Below, piece by piece: positions 1-6,655 of a stretch of DNA of 29,434 nucleotides. Position numbers and translations under genes: made by a program. Numbering within the stretch: position 1 is the stretch's first letter; the number at the start of each line of letters is the position of its first letter. The stretch lies in UHGV virus genome UHGV-0114363; one strand, given 5' to 3'. The DNA comes from a virus. The notes under the pieces were generated by a model, which did no database searches, was not told the origin of the DNA, and saw only the letters and a list, made by a program, of their open reading frames with translations.

Positions 1-81
1 TTGCCCACCTCAATTTTAACTGATTATTGATATTGAAAACTCGTACTTTTAACTGATACAGATATTTAGGAAACCATAAAT

Positions 82-447
82 TTATTTGTCCAAGATTCTA
101 TCCATAATATTTCTTAGTTCTTGTCTGGTTGATTCTATTTTAGCAAGCAACGTTTTGATCAATGAGGGTGAAAAATCAACTGTGCGTGGATCGTTAGCTA
201 ACCACAGTTTAAGTAACCCACCAAGTCGACCAAGATCAGCATTTACTCGGCTAAGCTCTACAACCTGTTCAATATCTACAATAGACTCAACCTGATAACC
301 CATTGCTACTTTACGAATGAAGCTCGCTACACTTAAGCCAGATGCTTCTGCATTTTCCTGGATTTGCGCTTTTTCATCTGGCAAACAATAAACTTTAATT
401 GGTGTACTATTTTTTCTAGTCTGAGAAACGGTCATATCATTCTCCAT
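82..447 (-). CDS. NikA/MobC-like ribbon-helix-helix relaxosome accessory (mobilization) protein
   Basis: 121-aa ORF; segment KVYCLPDEKAQIQENAEASGLSVASFIRKVAMG...LGRLGGLLK resembles the RHH core of plasmid NikA/MobC-type oriT-binding proteins (recollection of R64 NikA pattern). A GAGGTG Shine-Dalgarno at the extreme left edge (minus sense) suggests the next gene, plausibly a relaxase, starts just off-window. Confidence 0.5.
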   Translation of the reverse strand: MENDMTVSQTRKNSTPIKVYCLPDEKAQIQENAEASGLSVASFIRKVAMGYQVESIVDIEQVVELSRVNADLGRLGGLLKLWLANDPRTVDFSPSLIKTLLAKIESTRQELRNIMDRILDK

Positions 448-515
448 ACAGGCGGTAGCCGATCAGCCTCGCAGAGCAGGACTCCGTTGAGCAGCCCAGC
501 TGCTAATAAGAGAAG

Positions 516-553
516 GTAAAGTAGAAGCACCGTTTACGGTGGGCCTACTTTAC
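516..553. repeat. Inverted repeat GTAAAGTAG / CTACTTTAC enclosing palindrome ACCGTTTACGGT; candidate oriT or operator element
   Basis: Perfect 9-bp arms at 516-524 and 545-553 with nested palindrome at 529-540; lies about 70 bp upstream of the NikA/MobC-like start codon; no flanking T-tract so not an intrinsic terminator. Confidence 0.4.
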
Positions 554-584
554 ATGTCCTGCCCTACATTTGCCGTTGTGAATC

Positions 585-623
585 TGTGTACGTATTGTGT
601 ATTCCTGTGTACTCAGTGTGTTT
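585..623. repeat. Four helically phased TGTGT(A/T) direct repeats (candidate protein-binding array)
   Basis: TGTGT cores start at 585, 596, 606 and 617 (spacing 11, 10, 11 bp) in the intergenic region between the AlpA-like and NikA/MobC-like genes. Confidence 0.4.
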
Positions 624-717
624 TCCTAAAGCATTTGTGCAGGATTAGTAGTGTAAAAATGTGCAGCATATGTGTTTATTGGAAGGGAAATTATTTGAAT
701 GACCCTAAGAAATATTT

Positions 718-1011
718 TTATTCTCGCGGCTTGGGTTTTGGCGGCCTGCCACGTTTCCTTTGAAACCTATTTATCTCTTTCGCTATATCGTCATTTTCTG
801 TCTTTGACTCAACAGATTTATCTATCCAATCCTTAACATCTTCTCTACGCCAGAGAAGACGTTTATTACCGGGAAGACGGCATCTTGGTGGAAGACATTT
901 TGGATTTCGCGTTGCATCACTGCGGATACTTTTTACAGTTTTCTTTAATGCAAAAGCCAACTCTTCAACGGTTATAAGTTCTGGCATAACTGATTTCATC
1001 GAAGAACCCAT
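718..1011 (-). CDS. AlpA-family helix-turn-helix regulator / excisionase-like protein with C-terminal AT-hook
   Basis: 97-aa ORF; LITVEELAFALKKTVKSIRS...LLWRREDVKDWI matches the AlpA/Xis-type HTH pattern; C-terminal KRGRPPKPKP is an AT-hook-like basic tail. Start could be 1011 or 999. Confidence 0.6.
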   Translation of the reverse strand: MGSSMKSVMPELITVEELAFALKKTVKSIRSDATRNPKCLPPRCRLPGNKRLLWRREDVKDWIDKSVESKTENDDIAKEINRFQRKRGRPPKPKPRE

Positions 1012-1033
1012 CTCTCAGTAGAAATTTGAGGAT

Positions 1034-1061
1034 TTTAGCGGCTAAAATTTTAGCCGCTAAA
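1034..1061. promoter_or_regulatory. 28-bp perfect palindrome TTTAGCGGCTAAAATTTTAGCCGCTAAA (candidate operator)
   Basis: Arms 1034-1047 and 1048-1061 are exact reverse complements; sits 23-50 bp upstream of the AlpA-like start codon. Confidence 0.5.
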
Positions 1062-1311
1062 GTTTGCTAACCAACGTTATGAATTGAGAATAATTAAAAC
1101 TTACTGGCAAAAAGAATAATGTCAACAGGATTTTTATTCATCGGATTTTTACTCCATATGAAATTGGTTTTATTGACCGATTTCTGAATGACACTAAGGT
1201 TTTAATAATTCCTTTAATCTTTTTGGTTATATAAAAGGTTAAAGATCAGGTTAGAGAGGTGTGGAAAAGCGATATATTCATTTGTATATTATGACAATTT
1301 TAAATTATATC

Positions 1312-1372
1312 CGTACCTCAAATGTCATGAAAGCGTACCTCATATGTCATAAAGGCGTACCTCATATGTCAT
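1312..1372. repeat. Three iteron-like direct repeats with 22-bp phase (core CGTACCTCA(A/T)ATGTCAT)
   Basis: 17-bp cores at 1312-1328, 1334-1350 and 1356-1372; copies 2 and 3 identical, copy 1 differs at one base; followed by several hundred bp of very AT-rich non-coding DNA. Confidence 0.6.
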
Positions 1373-1460
1373 ATAATAAAAAATAAGCAAACAAGTTATA
1401 CACAATATTATTCACAGAATCTGTGGATAAATACACAGATTATACATGATAAAATAGATT

Positions 1461-1659
1461 GTTTAGCTAAACTAAATAGCAATAAATAAAATGAAACAAA
1501 ATGTAAATAACAGAGAGTTGTAGATAACTTATAAATTTGGTTAGCTAACCTTTATAAGAAACACTGTTTGTAAAAGATTCATTTCTGACAACGGATATAT
1601 CGAAATTTAGTAAGTAAAATGCCACAGCTAAATCTTTTATATCATTTGTTTAGCTATAC
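1461..1659. promoter_or_regulatory. Three dispersed palindromic sites with TTAGCTA core (candidate operators)
   Basis: GTTTAGCTAAAC at 1461-1472 (perfect palindrome), GGTTAGCTAACC at 1539-1550 (perfect palindrome), GTTTAGCTATAC at 1648-1659 (one mismatch); the TTTAGC half-site also occurs in the 28-bp palindrome at 1034-1061. A CACAGAATCTGTG palindrome lies at 1413-1425. Confidence 0.45.
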
Positions 1660-1974
1660 TATTTTTACTAAGGGTTATGTATATCTAAACTACAAAAACA
1701 GCAATGCAAAAGATAAACGGGTAACAATCGTAGAAAAGCTTTGTTGCTGAGGGGTTACCCTCATTGGAAACCGGCTTGAGATAAGTATCATATGAGGATA
1801 TCAAATCCGACTGGTGAGGCCAGGTTTGATAATTTGAAGCGCTGGACGTAGCGTAGATGCCACAATAGAGGAGACAATAGTAAATTAAATTATAAGATAA
1901 ATGCAGATTTTTGTTTCGCTATGAAGTTATCACTGAAGATAAAGTATTCTAAGATAGATGAATGTGAGGTTGCC

Positions 1975-2235
1975 ATGACAACGATGAAAGCTAGACCCAG
2001 TTCTGTTGCGGATATTCTTTTAAATGAGTATTTGAAACCTTTAGCTATGTCTTCACGTGACTTAGCTAATTTGATGGGAGTACCTTATAGCAGAATTGAC
2101 GATATATTACGACACTCTAAAAATATAAGTAATAGAGAGGGGGAATTACTTTCTAAAATCTTCAATACTGATAGCGATTTTTGGATAAAACTTCAAGAAA
2201 ACTATATAAATCATACATGCAAATTCCATAAATAG
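1975..2235 (+). CDS. HigA-family antitoxin-like XRE helix-turn-helix protein (solitary)
   Basis: PSSVADILLNEYLKPLAMSSRDLANLMGVPYSRIDDILRHSKNISNREGELLSKIFNTDSDFWIKLQ matches the HigA-type HTH pattern; GAGGT Shine-Dalgarno 4 nt before the ATG at 1975. No toxin-sized ORF on either side. Confidence 0.6.
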   Translation: MTTMKARPSSVADILLNEYLKPLAMSSRDLANLMGVPYSRIDDILRHSKNISNREGELLSKIFNTDSDFWIKLQENYINHTCKFHK

Positions 2236-2499
2236 TGCATAAACGCTAACTTAAGGCATATATTATTTGTACTACGCCGTTGTATTAAAGAGAGATATCA
2301 AGCAACAAAAATCAACTATAATAGGTAAAAAATCAGTATGAAGGAATTATCACAATCTGCACGATGGTTCTAATATAAATTTAGTAAAATAAAACATAAA
2401 TCATTTCCGTATAAAAAGATGGCCAGGTCTTTATCATCGACCCAGCCAATTAGTAAAGGATTTTTCATTTCAAACTCATTAAACCTTAGGCATAAAACC

Positions 2500-4989
2500 T
2501 TAATGTTCAATATCTATTTGATTATCAATTTGAATAATGTTTTGAATCTCACTGTAAATATCAATGTTCTCATCTGGTACATCTATGCTAACCAATAAAC
2601 TATATTTAACATTGTTAATATAGCGATCCTGCGCAGTACGATATTTCCACCATCCACCAACAGGATAGACAGCGATAGTATTCATCTCTGTTAAATCTGC
2701 AGCACTGCCTTTCCAAGCATCTGAGTGTAATGAACCTCTAACTCTGAGTTGAGGCCCCAGAAACCATCCTGACGCATCTCCTTCAGGTCCATTGTATTCT
2801 TCATTATTCGCATTACGGTTTATCGAAGCACGGAAATTTTCAAGGGTCTGATTAGGTCTAATAACTGCAAATCTCAATCCATGAGATTGATACGAATATT
2901 GTCGTCTGAATCCTTTTTGACTTGGATTAGGTTCAATAAAATACGACAATGTGATTCTTAAAATAACATTTGTTTCTGGTGGTAGTAAGCGAAGAGCTTC
3001 TACGGGCCAAGGGAGTGAAAACAGATGCATTTCATTCAATGTAGGATCAGTAGAACCATCTCTTTTAAATGGGGTGATTTCCGACTGAGATATTAATGTA
3101 AGTGCATTTTCCGCACTATGCATTGCTCGATTTAAATTAGGTACTCCATAACCAACCATCCTTAATAAGCTTTCTTTAGCCGATTTTGGTGTCCCCTGTG
3201 CACGTTCTGTTCTATATCGTTCGTGCATACGACTAGTCCATCTTGCTGTATGAACAAGTAATCCCCTAATAGTTTCAGGCCAATATTCTGGGTACTGAGC
3301 CATTAGCATAGCAGCATGTTTTGATACTAGAGCACAGGCTGCGCTAGTATCTGAATTAACTTCAAACAATTGATTTGTTGCCCTGCCAGAGGTTGTGAGC
3401 AAAGATAATTCAATTGTATTTGTGATTTCATCACGGCTAGGTGATATAAGTTTGTTTCCGCCTTCCTCTACTAAATCTGGCTTATATGGGGCATGCTTTT
3501 TCCATCCCCAGGATACCGATGACCGAGATGACGGTGCAATATCTTCTGACATAGCGAAAGGAGACCAACCATCATATTCGCGGTCTGTATGGGTTGTTTT
3601 ATCAGTATACGCCCCTACAGTTAATGCATTCCAAGATTGAGCAGGATCTTCAATTTCAGCAAGAGTCACTGAATCCCAATAATCTAATTCTAAATTTGTA
3701 GGTTGAGAGTTACCCGCAGAAATTATAAATAATCTGCGGATATCATCCTCTAAACCAAAACTAAACTTGTCAATCTCTGCAGACCATGAGGACGGTTGGC
3801 CTCCAAGAGTATTAGGCTCTGCTGTCACAGCAAGCGAATAAACTCTGCGCCAGTTCGGGTTTTCCAGCTCCAGACGACTTGACGTTCCTGTAGTAATAGC
3901 TCCATAAAGATTAGGATCATTAGTAGCTCTTGGAGGTAGTATCCTTCCTGATTCGATATTGTACGGAATCGAAATGTCCTGATCGTTCAATAAAACAGAC
4001 AGGAAATCTCCATAAACACATAGTCCTGCTTGTCTGGAACCGTGGTCATTATAAGGCCTTTGATTATAATCATCGAAAAGTGGCCAAGATATGTCCCAAG
4101 CAGCTGCCAGTGATGAGTTAGTAAATCTAGATAATAGTGGATTATTGTAGTTAACACCTGTATCTAATATACAAACAGAAACATCAGCTTCATTGTTACG
4201 CGTAATTCTTGCAGCAACATTTTCTGCCCACTGATGCTGTTCTGTAGGTAAGGAATTAACTATAACTGATATATCATCCCTCGCTGATCTTATCTCTTTT
4301 AAATTAGATATTAATTCAGGACAAACTTTTAATCTCGATAGACTCGTACGGATAAGAACAACAGTAGTATCGAAAAAATTAATAGAAGTATTCCCGAGCC
4401 TTCCATTAATTCTTTCGCATAAACGCCGAGCAATATTTAGCACATCCTCCTTATTACCCTTAAGCCAAAGCTCAAACCACTTTTCAACACCGTGATCATC
4501 CGGAATAAGATCTTTTTTATCTGTCCAGAAAGAAGTTATATCTGCTAACTCGATATTTTGTATGCTATCAATTAACAAATGATTTCTAGGGAACTCGATA
4601 CCATCCTTCGATGGATTCAAATAGTCATTTATTTTTTTAGTGAATTTAGTTCTGTCATTTTCATTAATGTATATAATCGCAGTTTCACGATTATTTGATT
4701 TAACTAAAGAACAAAGCTTGAAATAAGTATTATCGATTTTATCTATAGGAAGATCGCATTGTTCAAAACTGATTAGCCTAACATAAATCCCTTTTTCATC
4801 AGTAACAGGGGGAAGCCTCGGTCTTTCATCATAATGATTCAATATACGGCTATACTGATTTAGTAATGATATACCATGTACCGCTCGATCACGAGCTGGG
4901 ACTTGGGGACTACGACCATTGCTCCTAGAGCGATAGTTTTCGGGGGAAACATAGCCGTTTAATAAAATATGCCTCTTGTTGGTAGTCAT
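2500..4989 (-). CDS. Subtilisin-like serine peptidase (S8 family), 829 aa, with extra N- and C-terminal domains
   Basis: Catalytic residues in canonical subtilase order: Asp in VCILDTGVN (about residue 276), His in YNDHGSRQ (316), oxyanion Asn in FIISAGNSQ (427), Ser in NSDTSAACALV (549); ALTVGAYT motif present. AGGGA Shine-Dalgarno overlaps the 3' end of the upstream ATPase gene (8-nt gap). Confidence 0.8.
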   Translation of the reverse strand: MTTNKRHILLNGYVSPENYRSRSNGRSPQVPARDRAVHGISLLNQYSRILNHYDERPRLPPVTDEKGIYVRLISFEQCDLPIDKIDNTYFKLCSLVKSNNRETAIIYINENDRTKFTKKINDYLNPSKDGIEFPRNHLLIDSIQNIELADITSFWTDKKDLIPDDHGVEKWFELWLKGNKEDVLNIARRLCERINGRLGNTSINFFDTTVVLIRTSLSRLKVCPELISNLKEIRSARDDISVIVNSLPTEQHQWAENVAARITRNNEADVSVCILDTGVNYNNPLLSRFTNSSLAAAWDISWPLFDDYNQRPYNDHGSRQAGLCVYGDFLSVLLNDQDISIPYNIESGRILPPRATNDPNLYGAITTGTSSRLELENPNWRRVYSLAVTAEPNTLGGQPSSWSAEIDKFSFGLEDDIRRLFIISAGNSQPTNLELDYWDSVTLAEIEDPAQSWNALTVGAYTDKTTHTDREYDGWSPFAMSEDIAPSSRSSVSWGWKKHAPYKPDLVEEGGNKLISPSRDEITNTIELSLLTTSGRATNQLFEVNSDTSAACALVSKHAAMLMAQYPEYWPETIRGLLVHTARWTSRMHERYRTERAQGTPKSAKESLLRMVGYGVPNLNRAMHSAENALTLISQSEITPFKRDGSTDPTLNEMHLFSLPWPVEALRLLPPETNVILRITLSYFIEPNPSQKGFRRQYSYQSHGLRFAVIRPNQTLENFRASINRNANNEEYNGPEGDASGWFLGPQLRVRGSLHSDAWKGSAADLTEMNTIAVYPVGGWWKYRTAQDRYINNVKYSLLVSIDVPDENIDIYSEIQNIIQIDNQIDIEH

Positions 4990-4997
4990 TTCATCCC

Positions 4998-5984
4998 TTA
5001 TTGTCTACTTTCTTGCCTACGCTTTATAGCCTTTACTAACAAATCGGTTGTAATATTGTTTGCATTATAAAGCACTGATTCTTTGGCAGCATCTTCACTT
5101 GCTCGCGTGATCTCCGCTGCACTTAGACCTGAAGCACTATCAATGATCTCACTCCAAAATAAATTACCGAGGTCAAAGACAGCGAGTCTCTGTTCAATAA
5201 GATTCCTGATTAGATTATCCTCAGGCCTTGTGAACGGTATAATATCGTCAAATCGTCTATATAAGGCGCGATCTAAAAGCTCTGGATGATTGGTTGCAGC
5301 TAAAACTATGCTCTCAGAATCATCCTGCTCTACAAACATTAAAAAAGAATTTAAGACCCTACGAATTTCTCCAACGTCATTCTGAGCGCCACGCTGAGTT
5401 CCTATAGCATCGAACTCGTCAAAAAAATATACAGCTCTTGTTTGCCGTATGTGGTCAAAAATTAAACGCAGCTTAGCTGCAGTTTCACCCATATAGCGAG
5501 TGATTAGATTATCTAAGACGACTGTATAAAGTGGTAGCTTTAACTCTGTAGCAATGACTGATGCGGACATTGTCTTACCAGTACCGGGAGGACCAGTGAA
5601 AAGAATTTTTCTTCTTGGAATAAGCCCAAACTCAGAAAGTTTATCTTTCTGTTTTTGTTCAAGCAGAACCTGATTCAATCTTTCCCTAACGCTTCCAGAA
5701 ATCACCAGATCTTGAAGATGTACTGGCTTGTTCGTTTGCTCAAGTAACCCCTTAAGATCACCATCAGGCTGCTTAACAAATGGTGTAAGTCGTTTTTCAA
5801 CTAAACCTACAGAACTCGTTGTTTTCTGATTTTTATCAACTAAGTTTTTTATATCATTAGCAAGCTTATGATGACCTTGCCTTGCTTCCTTAGCTGCCAC
5901 CTGCAAAGCAATAGAAAAGAAACGCTGATCATCACGATCAACGTGGCTTTTCAATAAAGCTTTGATCTGCTCTGCAGTAGCCAT
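4998..5984 (-). CDS. AAA+ ATPase (classical AAA clade), 328 aa
   Basis: Walker A GPPGTGKT (131-138), Walker B VYFFDEFD (about 186-192), sensor-1 LAATNHPELLD (about 229-238) and RRFD (243-246); roughly 100-aa helical N-terminal region; first gene of a two-gene operon with the S8 peptidase. Confidence 0.85.
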   Translation of the reverse strand: MATAEQIKALLKSHVDRDDQRFFSIALQVAAKEARQGHHKLANDIKNLVDKNQKTTSSVGLVEKRLTPFVKQPDGDLKGLLEQTNKPVHLQDLVISGSVRERLNQVLLEQKQKDKLSEFGLIPRRKILFTGPPGTGKTMSASVIATELKLPLYTVVLDNLITRYMGETAAKLRLIFDHIRQTRAVYFFDEFDAIGTQRGAQNDVGEIRRVLNSFLMFVEQDDSESIVLAATNHPELLDRALYRRFDDIIPFTRPEDNLIRNLIEQRLAVFDLGNLFWSEIIDSASGLSAAEITRASEDAAKESVLYNANNITTDLLVKAIKRRQESRQ

Positions 5985-6448
5985 AACCCCTCATACTCCC
6001 TTGTTCTCTTGTTGCAAAGTTTACTATAAATTCATTTAGTTCGACATCGTTACCTACCTGCTCATTACAGGAAAGTAATACCTTCATGAGCGTATCATCA
6101 ATGATCAAAGTGTAATCAAACACCTAGGCATAGTACCTTCACTACGTGAACTGTATCACTCATTGTTATGTAACCTGAGTGTCCCTTTCTGGCACTTAGC
6201 TCTATCGGATAATGTATTTAAGCTGTTAATTTATAAGATTTTTCATCACTAAACTGTCTTTCATGCAACGCATCGATAAGGTCAACACATTACGTTTATA
6301 AGGAAGTAGTTTGTTTAGCGTAATGATGCAAATGCTGACCAATTAGCTTTGCCACAATTTTGCCACACCTACAACGCGCAAAATTGCACATTAGTGTTGA
6401 ACAAAGCAAAATACTGCAATAGTAACTTGATGATTTTACGAGAAAAGA

Positions 6449-6494
6449 TGGTGCCGATAATAGGAGTCGAACCTACGACCTTCGCATTACGAAT
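6449..6494 (-). other. Partial tRNA-Thr(CGU) 3' end (46 nt): anticodon loop through CCA; att core repeat
   Basis: Minus-strand sequence ATTCGTAATGCGAAGGTCGTAGGTTCGACTCCTATTATCGGCACCA has a CGT anticodon loop, GGTTCGACTCC T-arm and terminal CCA; no D-arm or 5' acceptor half follows, so it is a 3' fragment typical of an integrase att duplication. Matches my recollection of enterobacterial thrW. Confidence 0.7.
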
Positions 6495-6655
6495 CTGTAG
6501 CACCAATCATAACTATCTGTTTTAGCAAGCATTAACCGCATTCACTAAGTTATAGTTGATGGCACAAACAGAAAGTTGATGCATGATGTTTTCATGCGTA
6601 TGTCACAAATACGGCACAACAATCTTCAAATATGTAGACACACATCCACAGGAGA

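What the first reader, a model, noticed from the sequence alone, without database searches (positions are those of the whole stretch)
1975..2235. Solitary HigA-like HTH gene with no toxin partner, convergent with the protease gene
The 86-aa protein has the HigA-type XRE HTH pattern, but no HigB/RelE-sized ORF lies upstream or downstream on either strand. It is sandwiched between the repeat-rich control region and the ATPase-subtilase operon. It may be an orphan antitoxin, or a transcriptional regulator of the island or of the neighbouring operon; the dispersed TTAGCTA palindromes and an ACAATAG direct repeat pair at 1863-1880 are candidate operators.
Basis: partly seen in the sequence, partly recalled or inferred. 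Interest (0 to 1): 0.5.

Follow-up and report, generated by a model that had tools for sequence, protein, structure and literature searches.

The report
Toxin-less HigA regulator of plasmid-dependent island
The gene is a real HigA-type DNA-binding protein with no toxin partner. It is a fixed gene of a small E. coli chromosomal island that appears to depend on IncP-type plasmids and carries anti-phage systems, and the nearby "palindromes" match that plasmid type's KorA and KorB repressor sites rather than sites specific to this protein.

Summary
Window 1975-2235 (+) encodes an 86-aa HigA-family HTH protein: NCBIfam TIGR02607 54.4 bits (cut-off 47.7), and an AlphaFold model with TM 0.84-0.89 to P. 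aeruginosa HigA. No toxin gene or remnant lies beside it.

The interpretation needs revising. The gene sits in an integrative mobilizable island at tRNA-Thr (thrW). The island layout is int…trbL-trbK-trbJ-traJ-alpA-like | ~1-kb control region | higA | variable defence cargo | tRNA.

All 14 other island loci examined (E. coli, Enterobacter, Dickeya, Klebsiella and an unnamed host) carry a solitary higA orthologue at this position, next to at least nine different cargos. Relatives of about 100 aa (30-37% identical) are ordinary HigB-HigA pairs.

The control region holds:
- exact IncP-1 KorB operators (1034-1061);
- KorA operators (GTTTAGCTAAAC, 1461-1472; one mismatch at 1648-1659);
- TrfA-type iterons and a DnaA box;
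- an IncP-type oriT upstream of traJ.

So the "TTAGCTA palindromes" are helper-plasmid operators or, inside higA, in-frame Leu-Ala codons. The ACAATAG repeat is consistent with chance.

Best reading: a domesticated antitoxin that now regulates the island, possibly wired to the helper plasmid's KorA. That mechanism is inferred, not shown.

The parts
82..447 (-). traJ (NikA-like oriT-binding protein) of the island
   Evidence: Pfam NikA-like 4.7e-24. NCBIfam TraJ 163 bits against a cut-off of 134. 70% identical to TraJ of the IncP-1-like plasmid pEC187_3.
451..564 (-). IncP-type oriT (inverted repeat plus nic-region-like GTCCTGCTCTGCGAGGCT); also scored as the Rfam traJ-II motif
   Evidence: Rfam RF01760 87.3 bits at 465-564. 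Aligns with the traK-traJ intergenic region of pEC187_3.
718..1011 (-). AlpA-like excisionase/regulator gene, divergent from higA
   Evidence: phrog_66 'excisionase and transcriptional regulator' 1.8e-6 and phrog_6355 1.9e-31. No Pfam or NCBIfam hit. Conserved in all island variants.
1034..1061 (.). Two adjacent exact KorB operators: TTTAGCGGCTAAA (1034-1046) and TTTAGCCGCTAAA (1049-1061)
   Evidence: Consensus from PMC2680271. 2 matches against 0.03 expected. Present at the same position in all 14 intergenic regions scanned, the distal copy with one mismatch in several. They overlap the inferred promoter of the alpA-like operon.
1312..1377 (.). Three 22-bp tandem iterons (CGTACCTCAWATGTCAT...), TrfA type
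   Evidence: Repeat family D1. The same core is repeated in the region downstream of trfA (presumed oriV) of pEC187_3.
1422..1430 (-). DnaA box (TTATCCACA on the - strand) inside the inverted repeat 1418-1441
   Evidence: Found in 13 of the 14 intergenic regions aligned or scanned (alignment A1; two carry a 1-nt variant), and next to the plasmid iterons.
1461..1472 (.). Exact KorA operator O_A (GTTTAGCTAAAC)
   Evidence: PMC2680271. Invariant in all variants.
1539..1550 (.). O_A-like palindrome GGTTAGCTAACC (2 mismatches); weakly conserved
   Evidence: Not conserved in L007.
1594..1601 (.). Invariant palindrome GATATATC within CAACGGATATATCGAA; binding protein unknown (candidate island-regulator site)
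   Evidence: Core palindrome invariant in all variants, including Dickeya. Absent from plasmid pEC187_3.
1648..1659 (.). KorA operator copy 3 (GTTTAGCTATAC, 1 mismatch here); marks the end of backbone homology
   Evidence: Exact in most variants, where it lies about 35 nt upstream of the higA ATG, directly followed by TATAAT. The homology breakpoint is at about 1619-1659.
1660..1974 (+). Allele-linked 'long' leader upstream of higA, with a conserved ~70-nt core (1822-1870), inverted repeat 1748-1763 and a promoter-like site at 1764-1791
   Evidence: Present only in the window, L010, L017 and L018 types. No Rfam hit. Weak covariation. Inverted repeat and promoter scan.
1975..2235 (+). higA: solitary HigA-family HTH gene (86 aa)
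   Evidence: Orthologues at the same position in every island locus examined.
2500..4989 (-). IetS-like S8 peptidase (defence cargo)
   Evidence: Pfam Peptidase_S8 4e-54. PADLOC IetS 2.9e-34. NCBIfam IteS scores only 38.8 bits against a cut-off of 900.
4998..5984 (-). IetA-like AAA ATPase (defence cargo)
   Evidence: PADLOC IetA 5.5e-77. NCBIfam IteA 221.6 bits against a cut-off of 510.
6340..6494 (.). Conserved island end next to the tRNA. Positions 6449-6494 are the 3' 46 nt of tRNA-Thr (att repeat), and the prophage begins at 6495.

Best explanation
higA is a domesticated, toxin-less HigA-family HTH protein. It acts as the resident transcriptional regulator of a roughly 11-12-kb integrative mobilizable island at thrW. 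The island is a PIME-like element that has no relaxase and no replicase of its own.

Shown by the data:
- The gene is intact, is under purifying selection and has a HigA fold.
- It is positionally fixed between the island backbone and a defence-cargo hotspot in every variant examined.
- It is transcribed divergently from the alpA-like-traJ-trbJKL genes, across a control region built from IncP-1-type parts. These parts are 2 KorB operators, KorA operators, TrfA-type iterons with a DnaA box, and an IncP-type oriT beside traJ.

Inferred:
- As a dimeric repressor of the P. aeruginosa HigA type, it binds a palindrome in this control region and keeps the excision/transfer operon and itself quiet when no helper plasmid is present.
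- Its own promoter carries a KorA operator, which lies in the spacer before a TATAAT box in the common 'short' alleles. A resident IncP-1-like helper would then lower HigA through KorA.
- The island's transfer genes would at the same time come under KorB control, like the helper's own genes.
- The helper's TrfA and relaxase would then replicate and mobilise the excised island.

In the window's allele the third KorA operator is degenerate and a 315-nt leader separates it from higA, so this wiring may be weaker or different here.
For: Family and fold.

No toxin.

Positional conservation. Solitary higA lies at the same place in the window type (19 E. coli genomes) and in L007, L009-L013, L016-L019. 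It is also there in Enterobacter L020/L021, Dickeya L022, Klebsiella L030/L031 and L032. The A-type allele alone is in 66 E. coli genomes.

Independence from cargo. Alleles 88-100% identical (A-type) flank at least seven cargos: Dcm+HEPN+DUF262, AAA+HNH, AbiJ+Hachiman, canonical IteAS, DEAD helicase+REase, NACHT, and HTH-M78.

Descent from a TA module. Relatives of about 100 aa at 30-37% identity sit directly downstream of a PF05015 HigB gene. The island proteins lack the C-terminal 15-20 residues of those relatives.

Purifying selection. dN/dS is 0.13-0.61 among A-type alleles and 0.17 for L010 against L018.

Helper-type sites:
- Exact O_B and O_A consensus (PMC2680271).
- Site columns are 87% identical between divergent backbones, against 59% for the rest of the region.
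- Iteron cores are identical to the repeats downstream of trfA in pEC187_3.
- The oriT region aligns with the plasmid's.
- TraJ, TrbJ and TrbL are 70%, 88% and 58% identical to the plasmid proteins, and the plasmid has no HigA homologue.
- O_A copy 3 is directly followed by TATAAT and lies about 35 nt before the ATG in short alleles.

DNA-binding potential. Positions aligned with the base-specifying residues of P. aeruginosa HigA (Thr40, Asp43, Arg49; PMC6987408) are R40, D43 and K49 here (alignment).

Link to the backbone. In L034, where higA+IetS is detached from the backbone, higA is frameshifted while the IetS fragment held (residues 487-814) is 97.6% identical.

Precedent. PIME1 elements depend on IncP helpers and need two divergent regulators, alpA and luxR, for excision. 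How the helper is sensed is unknown (bioRxiv 10.64898/2026.01.12.698999).
Against: No binding, expression or excision data exist for this island, so the regulatory role is inferred from position and family.

The higA promoter is only a -10-like match and was not called by the consensus scan.

HigA alleles are only 40-51% identical to the window's, on backbones up to 95% identical. Any operator in the backbone must therefore be recognised by very different alleles, or else lie in the allele-linked leader.

In some lineages higA travels with the cargo:
- window 1660-6494 is about 1% divergent between two strains whose backbone control region differs by 12%;
- higA plus a retron Ec78-type module is found without the backbone in L035.

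KorB operators over the excision-operon promoter predict repression by the helper, which does not obviously fit helper-induced excision as seen in PIME1.

In this window O_A copy 3 has a mismatch and lies 315 nt from the ATG.
Confidence: 0.55

Rival explanations
1. Orphan antitoxin working in trans. The protein neutralises HigB-type toxins brought in by plasmids, phages or chromosomal higBA loci (anti-addiction). This would protect the host, or help the island displace or coexist with its helper.
For: It is a bona fide HigA-family member. Its nearest non-island relatives are functional-looking HigB-HigA pairs. The N-terminal 25 residues (TAEPTTVGEML.EEFLKP) are strongly conserved between paired and solitary forms.
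Against: The island clade has lost the C-terminal 15-20 residues present in all paired relatives. No HigB homologue was seen in the window. The protein annotations of the sampled helper-type plasmid list no HigB-like toxin. The fixed position, divergent from the excision operon across the control region, is not explained.
Confidence: 0.15
2. Cargo-linked regulator. higA belongs to the exchangeable module and controls, or is controlled with, the adjacent defence system. In this window that system is the IetAS-like operon.
For: The backbone homology breakpoint lies upstream of higA, at about 1659. Leader+higA+IetAS moves as one block between backbones. higA+IetS and higA+retron blocks occur outside the backbone. 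The Dickeya island also has higA with an AAA+S8 pair.
Against: A-type alleles 88-100% identical sit beside at least seven unrelated cargos, in either orientation. IetAS relatives at 33-55% identity in other taxa have no HigA neighbour. In Dickeya two other genes lie between higA and the AAA+S8 pair. higA is frameshifted in L034 although IetS is kept. higA is convergent with, not upstream of, the IetAS operon.
Confidence: 0.12
3. KorA mimic. HigA itself binds the TTAGCTA-centred palindromes, competing with or substituting for the helper's KorA.
For: In short alleles the palindrome next to higA extends to 20 bp (ATTTGTTTAGCTAAACAAAT), longer than the 12-bp O_A. HigA-type proteins bind palindromes in their own promoters (PMC6987408). 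A basic residue at position 40 and a mostly acidic one at position 43 of the recognition helix are shared among alleles.
Against: The sites are exact copies of the published KorA operator and occur with KorB operators, as on IncP-1 plasmids. HigA is unrelated to KorA in sequence and its alleles diverge to 40%, whereas O_A copy 1 is invariant. Nothing here tests binding.
Confidence: 0.1
4. Functionless relic of an old higBA module that happens to lie at a recombination boundary.
For: The toxin is gone. The gene is small and its alleles are very divergent.
Against: It is intact in every island locus sampled, across four genera. dN/dS is below 1. It has a strong Shine-Dalgarno sequence and a confidently folded model.
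Confidence: 0.05

Closest known systems
Pseudomonas aeruginosa HigA (PA4674; PDB 6jpi, 6lb3, 7csv-7csy)
   Same: Same fold (TM 0.84-0.89, about 32% identity). It is a small dimeric HTH repressor that binds the palindrome TTAAC-GTTAA. Besides its own operon it regulates unrelated promoters (mvfR, pel) (PMC6987408).
   Different: The P. aeruginosa protein is encoded with HigB and is about 100 aa. The island protein has no toxin gene and lacks the C-terminal tail seen in its HigB-paired relatives. At the base-contact positions it has R40/D43/K49 instead of T40/D43/R49, and its target is unknown.
Canonical HigB-HigA type II toxin-antitoxin modules (for example the Photorhabdus, Arsenophonus and Bacteroidales relatives found here)
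   Same: Homologous antitoxin, 30-37% identical, with a shared N-terminal helix and HTH.
   Different: Those have a PF05015 HigB gene 8-10 nt upstream and an antitoxin of about 100 aa. The island clade never has one.
PIME integrative mobilizable elements (Perta et al., bioRxiv 10.64898/2026.01.12.698999)
   Same: Chromosomal elements with int, alpA, traJ, trbJ, trbL, an IncP-like oriT and defence cargo beside the transfer module. The tested PIME1 elements are induced by IncP helpers. PIME1 has a second regulator (luxR) divergent from alpA, and both are needed for excision.
   Different: The thrW island has no repA, which the PIME search required. It carries TrfA-type iterons instead, has higA where PIME1 has luxR, and integrates at thrW rather than guaA. 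The preprint does not mention HigA, thrW, KorA or KorB.
SGI1-family islands exploiting IncC plasmids
   Same: [quoted passage not shown]
   Different: A different helper family and different signals. No HigA-type regulator is involved.
E. coli YbaQ (PDB 2eby)
   Same: Best PDB sequence match (1.2e-9). The depositors named it a putative HTH-type transcriptional regulator, not an antitoxin.
   Different: 113 aa. Its genomic context and function were not examined here.

Membership tests
HigA family antitoxin (NCBIfam TIGR02607) | Profile score above the curated cut-off | tested here: met
   54.4 bits against 47.7, E 8.1e-15. Pfam HTH_3 alone is below its cut-off, at 18.5 bits against 23.
HigA family antitoxin (NCBIfam TIGR02607) | Five-helix XRE-type HTH fold of solved HigA proteins | tested here: met
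   AlphaFold2 pLDDT 85 with five helices. Foldseek top 41 hits are all HigA, GraA, VapI or YbaQ, with TM up to 0.89.
HigBA type II toxin-antitoxin system | Adjacent HigB/RelE-fold toxin gene, normally directly upstream of higA | tested here: not met
   No ORF longer than 43 aa in 1012-1974. No toxin-family Pfam hit in six frames of 1012-2510 at E<=10. None in any of the other island loci examined.
HigBA type II toxin-antitoxin system | Antitoxin neutralises a cognate toxin | not testable with these tools
   Needs co-expression or binding assays. The C-terminal tail of the paired relatives is absent.
HigBA type II toxin-antitoxin system | Autorepression through a palindromic operator in its own promoter | tested here: inconclusive
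   Candidate palindromes exist: O_A copy 3 in short alleles, the inverted repeat 1748-1763, and GATATATC at 1594-1601. No binding data are available.
PIME (IncP-dependent integrative mobilizable elements) | Core set int + alpA + repA + trbJ + trbL | tested here: not met
   int, trbJ and trbL are present in complete copies. The alpA-like gene is supported only by phrog_66 at 1.8e-6. No replicase was found: the unassigned island ORFs have no Pfam hit.
PIME (IncP-dependent integrative mobilizable elements) | oriT resembling that of IncP helper plasmids | tested here: met
   Window 564-451 (- strand) aligns with the traK-traJ intergenic region of IncP-1-like pEC187_3, including GTCCTGCTCTGCGAGGCT.
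PIME (IncP-dependent integrative mobilizable elements) | Excision and transfer induced by an IncP helper plasmid | not testable with these tools
   Only indirect support: exact KorA and KorB operators, TrfA-type iterons and TraJ/TrbJ/TrbL homology.
IncP-1 Kor regulon target | Exact O_B (TTTAGCSGCTAAA) and O_A (GTTTAGCTAAAC) sequences at promoters | tested here: met
   Two O_B against 0.03 expected, and one exact O_A plus near-copies. They are conserved across variants. Binding itself was not tested.
IetAS (IteAS) anti-phage system (the neighbouring cargo) | AAA ATPase plus S8 peptidase pair matching the family models | tested here: inconclusive
   PADLOC IetA 5.5e-77 and IetS 2.9e-34. Both are far below the NCBIfam equivalog cut-offs, at 221.6 against 510 and 38.8 against 900. 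This is a diverged subtype whose function is untested.

The most novel reading that the evidence does not exclude
The thrW island is a satellite of IncP-1-like plasmids with no replicase and no relaxase of its own. It has copied its helper's control signals (KorB and KorA operators, TrfA iterons, oriT). The toxin-less HigA is the island's own repressor and, with the helper's KorA acting at the higA promoter, forms the helper-sensing switch. This would give a concrete mechanism for how such islands detect their helper, a question the PIME preprint (January 2026) leaves open.
Probability: 0.3. Interest if true: 0.7.

Novelty: new variant of a known kind. Interest (0 to 1): 0.45.

Why it matters
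On its own, a solitary HigA-like gene is ordinary, and the automated annotation already calls it an antitoxin. What matters is the context, for three reasons.

First, an antitoxin lineage has been recruited as a fixed regulator gene at the border of a defence-system hotspot. That hotspot supplies E. coli and its relatives with retron Ec78-type, IetAS, Hachiman, NACHT and other systems.

Second, the control region next to it is made of recognisable IncP-1 operator and origin sequences. This gives a directly testable hypothesis for how IncP-dependent mobilizable islands sense and exploit their helper plasmid.

Third, the 'HigA family addiction module antitoxin' label on these genes is probably functionally misleading.

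Tried and rejected
- Toxin remnants. Six-frame translations of 1012-2510 against Pfam at E<=10 gave only two chance hits, Macoilin and DUF4133. I read a 'KYH / MRISNPTGEA' stretch at about 1780-1850 as a possible HigB-end/HigA-start relic. I dropped it because it has no profile hit and the frame is not conserved in L010 or L017.
- Structured RNA in the control region or leader. Rfam found only traJ-II, which coincides with the oriT. RNAalifold on four long leaders gave -9.2 kcal/mol with a single compensatory pair, which is not convincing.
- HigA as a conserved IetAS component. Five IetS-relative loci in other taxa have no HigA-like sequence.
- TrbA operator. I recalled CGATATATCG as the IncP-1 TrbA site and thought the invariant GGATATATCG might be one. 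I could not verify the consensus in the papers held. GATATATC is also absent from the helper-type plasmid. The site is left unexplained.
- P. aeruginosa HigA-type palindrome (TTAAC-GTTAA). TAAC-N4-GTTA occurs near O_B only in some variants. The invariant part is CAACGTTA, which is too short to interpret.
- ACAATAG repeat as operator. It is consistent with chance and not conserved.
- dN/dS for the window's own allele. The only close variant (L025) differs at 2 sites, both conservative replacements, which is too few to use.
- A HigA homologue on the helper-type plasmid. None was found.
Full report
**What is at the coordinates.** Window 1975-2235 (+) is an 86-aa ORF. A longer in-frame ORF starts at 1921. 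The ATG at 1975 has a GAGG Shine-Dalgarno 5 nt upstream. It also corresponds to the start of every orthologue.

The protein passes the curated NCBIfam HigA model: TIGR02607 at 54.4 bits against a cut-off of 47.7. It misses Pfam HTH_3, at 18.5 bits against 23. PHROGs calls it a 'plasmid antitoxin with HTH domain'. The closest solved sequences are E. coli YbaQ (2eby, 1.2e-9) and P. aeruginosa HigA.

An AlphaFold2 model built on 43 homologues has pLDDT 85 and five helices. Its best Foldseek matches are P. aeruginosa HigA bound to DNA, with TM 0.84-0.89. RefSeq already names the gene 'HigA family addiction module antitoxin'.

**No toxin.** ORFs in the 963-nt upstream region reach only 41-43 aa. 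ORFs in or overlapping the 264-nt downstream spacer reach 46-59 aa. Six-frame translations of 1012-2510 hit no toxin family.

**Where the gene lives.** Window 1-6494 is 100% identical to a chromosomal segment in 19 complete E. coli genomes. There it ends at tRNA-Thr (thrW), next to proA. In the window, only the 3' 46 nt of the tRNA remain (6449-6494). They are followed by a SEN34/Omnitron-like prophage, so the island and the prophage sit in tandem.

Less decayed copies show an 11-12-kb element with this layout:
- integrase, one or two unknown ORFs, often a VbhA-like gene, and a 70-aa ORF;
- trbL, a 57-aa ORF at the position of trbK, trbJ and traJ;
- a 93-97-aa AlpA-like gene;
- a 0.7-1.2-kb intergenic region;
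- higA, then variable cargo, then the tRNA.

There is no relaxase, and no replicase was detected. The cargos seen are:
- this IetAS-like pair;
- canonical IteAS;
- retron Ec78 with PtuAB;
- an AAA+HNH pair;
- AbiJ with Hachiman;
- Dcm+HEPN+DUF262;
- an ABC-three-component system;
- a NACHT protein;
- a DEAD helicase with a restriction enzyme;
- three unknown genes (the same three-gene module in L007 and Klebsiella, one product with a GAPS4 PDDEXK domain).

The right edge of the variable region is a conserved stretch of about 150 nt next to the tRNA.

**higA is a fixed feature of the island, not of the cargo.** Every island locus examined has a solitary HigA-family gene at the same place. This holds for the E. 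coli loci and for loci from Enterobacter, Dickeya, Klebsiella and an unnamed host.
- The alleles are only 40-51% identical to the window's protein but are clearly orthologous, sharing IFNTD..FW.KLQ and the same length.
- One allele group, 88-100% identical, flanks at least seven different cargos and occurs in 66 E. coli genomes.
- dN/dS is 0.13-0.61.
- Relatives at 30-37% identity and about 100 aa lie 8-10 nt downstream of a PF05015 HigB gene. They come from Photorhabdus, an Arsenophonus replicon and Bacteroidales.
- The island clade lacks the last 15-20 residues of those relatives.

The gene is therefore a former antitoxin that lost its toxin and was kept.

IetAS relatives in other taxa have no HigA neighbour. 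In one metagenomic contig higA+IetS has been cut away from the backbone. There higA is frameshifted while the IetS fragment held is 97.6% identical.

Some evidence points the other way. The homology breakpoint between backbones lies just upstream of higA, at about 1619-1659. In strain 300081, leader+higA+IetAS is about 1% divergent, while the control region to its left differs by 12%. So higA can travel with the cargo.

**The 'repeat-rich control region'.** The two adjacent palindromes at 1034-1046 and 1049-1061 are exact copies of the IncP-1 KorB operator TTTAGC(C/G)GCTAAA. GTTTAGCTAAAC at 1461-1472 is the exact KorA operator. Both consensus sequences are given in PMC2680271. The counts are 2 against 0.03 expected, and 4 (at up to 2 mismatches) against 0.9 expected.

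Other elements in this region:
- A further KorA-operator copy at 1648-1659 has one mismatch here. It is exact in most variants.
- The three 22-bp repeats at 1312-1377 have the same core as the repeats downstream of trfA (presumed oriV) in a 41-kb IncP-1-like plasmid, pEC187_3. That plasmid encodes TrfA, a KorA-like protein, IncC/KorB-type ParA and ParB, KleE and KfrC.
- A DnaA box follows the repeats, as it does on the plasmid.
- That plasmid has 9 O_B and 2 O_A sites.
- Upstream of traJ, the stretch scored as the Rfam traJ-II motif aligns with the plasmid's oriT, including the nic-region-like GTCCTGCTCTGCGAGGCT.
- Island TraJ, TrbJ and TrbL are 70%, 88% and 58% identical to the plasmid's proteins. 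The plasmid has no HigA homologue.

Between island backbones that have diverged to about 60% in this region, the operator, iteron and DnaA-box columns stay 87% identical. The same architecture holds in Dickeya.

The two copies inside higA are in-frame Leu-Ala codon pairs. The ACAATAG pair (1862 and 1874) is expected by chance in 66% of simulations and is not conserved.

**How it most likely works.** The steps in this section are inference. P. aeruginosa HigA represses its own operon and unrelated promoters through a palindrome, with base-specific contacts from Thr40, Asp43 and Arg49 (PMC6987408). The aligned positions in the window's protein are R40, D43 and K49, so DNA binding is plausible.

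higA is divergent from the alpA-like-traJ-trbJKL genes. The inferred promoter of that operon (TTGGTT-16-TAAAAT on the minus strand, read) is covered by the two KorB operators.

In the common short alleles, KorA-operator copy 3 lies about 35 nt before the higA ATG and is directly followed by TATAAT. A strong Shine-Dalgarno sequence follows.

My proposal is that HigA keeps the island quiet when no helper is present. An IncP-1-like helper would lower HigA through KorA. It would also bring the transfer genes under KorB control, and would supply TrfA and the relaxase for the island's iterons and oriT.

This parallels PIME1 elements. They are induced by IncP plasmids, need two divergent regulators (alpA and luxR), and sense the helper by a mechanism stated to be unknown (bioRxiv 10.64898/2026.01.12.698999).

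Weak points:
- There are no binding or expression data.
- The -35 element is poor, and the consensus scan did not call the promoter.
- The alleles are very divergent on near-identical backbones.
- KorB sites over the excision promoter predict repression by the helper.
- The window's allele has a degenerate operator and a 315-nt leader. That leader has a conserved 70-nt core of unknown role.

**Comparison with what is known.** By sequence and fold the protein is a HigA-family member. It is not part of a HigBA system, because the defining toxin gene was sought and is absent.

The island resembles the PIME family and the relaxase-less VirB5/VirB6 mobilizable elements already noted as defence carriers in E. 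coli (PMC10121019). It fails the PIME core definition because it has no repA. The PIME preprint does not mention HigA, thrW, KorA or KorB.

I found no paper describing Kor operators or TrfA iterons on such islands. The library searched is limited, so this is not proof of novelty.

**Verdict.** I classify it as a new variant of a known kind, of moderate interest.

Noticed in passing
window 451-564 (- strand): The Rfam 'traJ-II RNA' hit (87 bits) coincides exactly with an IncP-type oriT. The inverted repeat and the nic-region-like GTCCTGCTCTGCGAGGCT align with the traK-traJ intergenic region of plasmid pEC187_3. The motif may be a DNA transfer-origin element rather than an RNA.
   Followed up: partly
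window 1312-1377 and 1422-1430: Three TrfA-type iterons plus a DnaA box, with an iteron core identical to the repeats downstream of trfA in the IncP-1-like plasmid. No replicase gene was detected on the island, which suggests a borrowed origin of replication.
   Followed up: partly
window 1594-1601 (CAACGGATATATCGAA): The core palindrome GATATATC is invariant in all 14 island intergenic regions scanned, including Dickeya, and is absent from the helper-type plasmid. Its binding partner is unknown.
   Followed up: partly
window 1073-1095: The block CAACGTTA.GAA.TGAGAATA lies just beyond the second KorB operator and abuts the inferred -35 of the alpA-like operon. It is invariant in every variant.
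   Followed up: no
window 1660-1974 (core 1822-1870): A 'long' leader present only in some higA allele types (window, L010, L017, L018). It has a conserved core of about 70 nt, no Rfam match and only weak covariation. Inverted repeat TGAGGG-GTTA-CCCTCA at 1748-1763 sits next to a promoter-like site.
   Followed up: partly
window 2500-5984: The AAA+S8 pair is a diverged IetAS subtype. IetS scores 38.8 bits against the NCBIfam IteS cut-off of 900. Relatives at 55% identity occur in two metagenome-assembled genomes, a truncated copy at 85% in Serratia, and a copy at 34% in a Dickeya island.
   Followed up: partly
window 6449-6494 and 6495-29434: The 3' 46 nt of tRNA-Thr (thrW) persist as an att repeat. 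Beyond them lies a SEN34/Omnitron-like myovirus prophage, integrated in tandem with the island.
   Followed up: partly
L034 (metagenome contig) and L035: higA+IetS (93% DNA identity, with higA frameshifted) and higA+retron Ec78-type blocks occur detached from the island backbone. Foreign DNA or IS elements begin 33-37 nt upstream of higA.
   Followed up: partly
L008 (E. coli 2013C-4991), equivalent to window 2242 onward: An IS1 lies 15 nt upstream of the point where homology to the window begins (window 2242). higA is absent there, and the IetAS pair remains at a different locus.
   Followed up: no
proteins P0007-P0010, P0013-P0015 (representative search): Proteins of about 390-410 aa with three or four tandem HigA-like HTH domains are among the best distant matches.
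   Followed up: no
L009, L018, L019 left end: A 112-nt feature annotated 'tRNA-Ser' lies immediately upstream of the island integrase. The length is unusual for a tRNA and I did not examine it.
   Followed up: no
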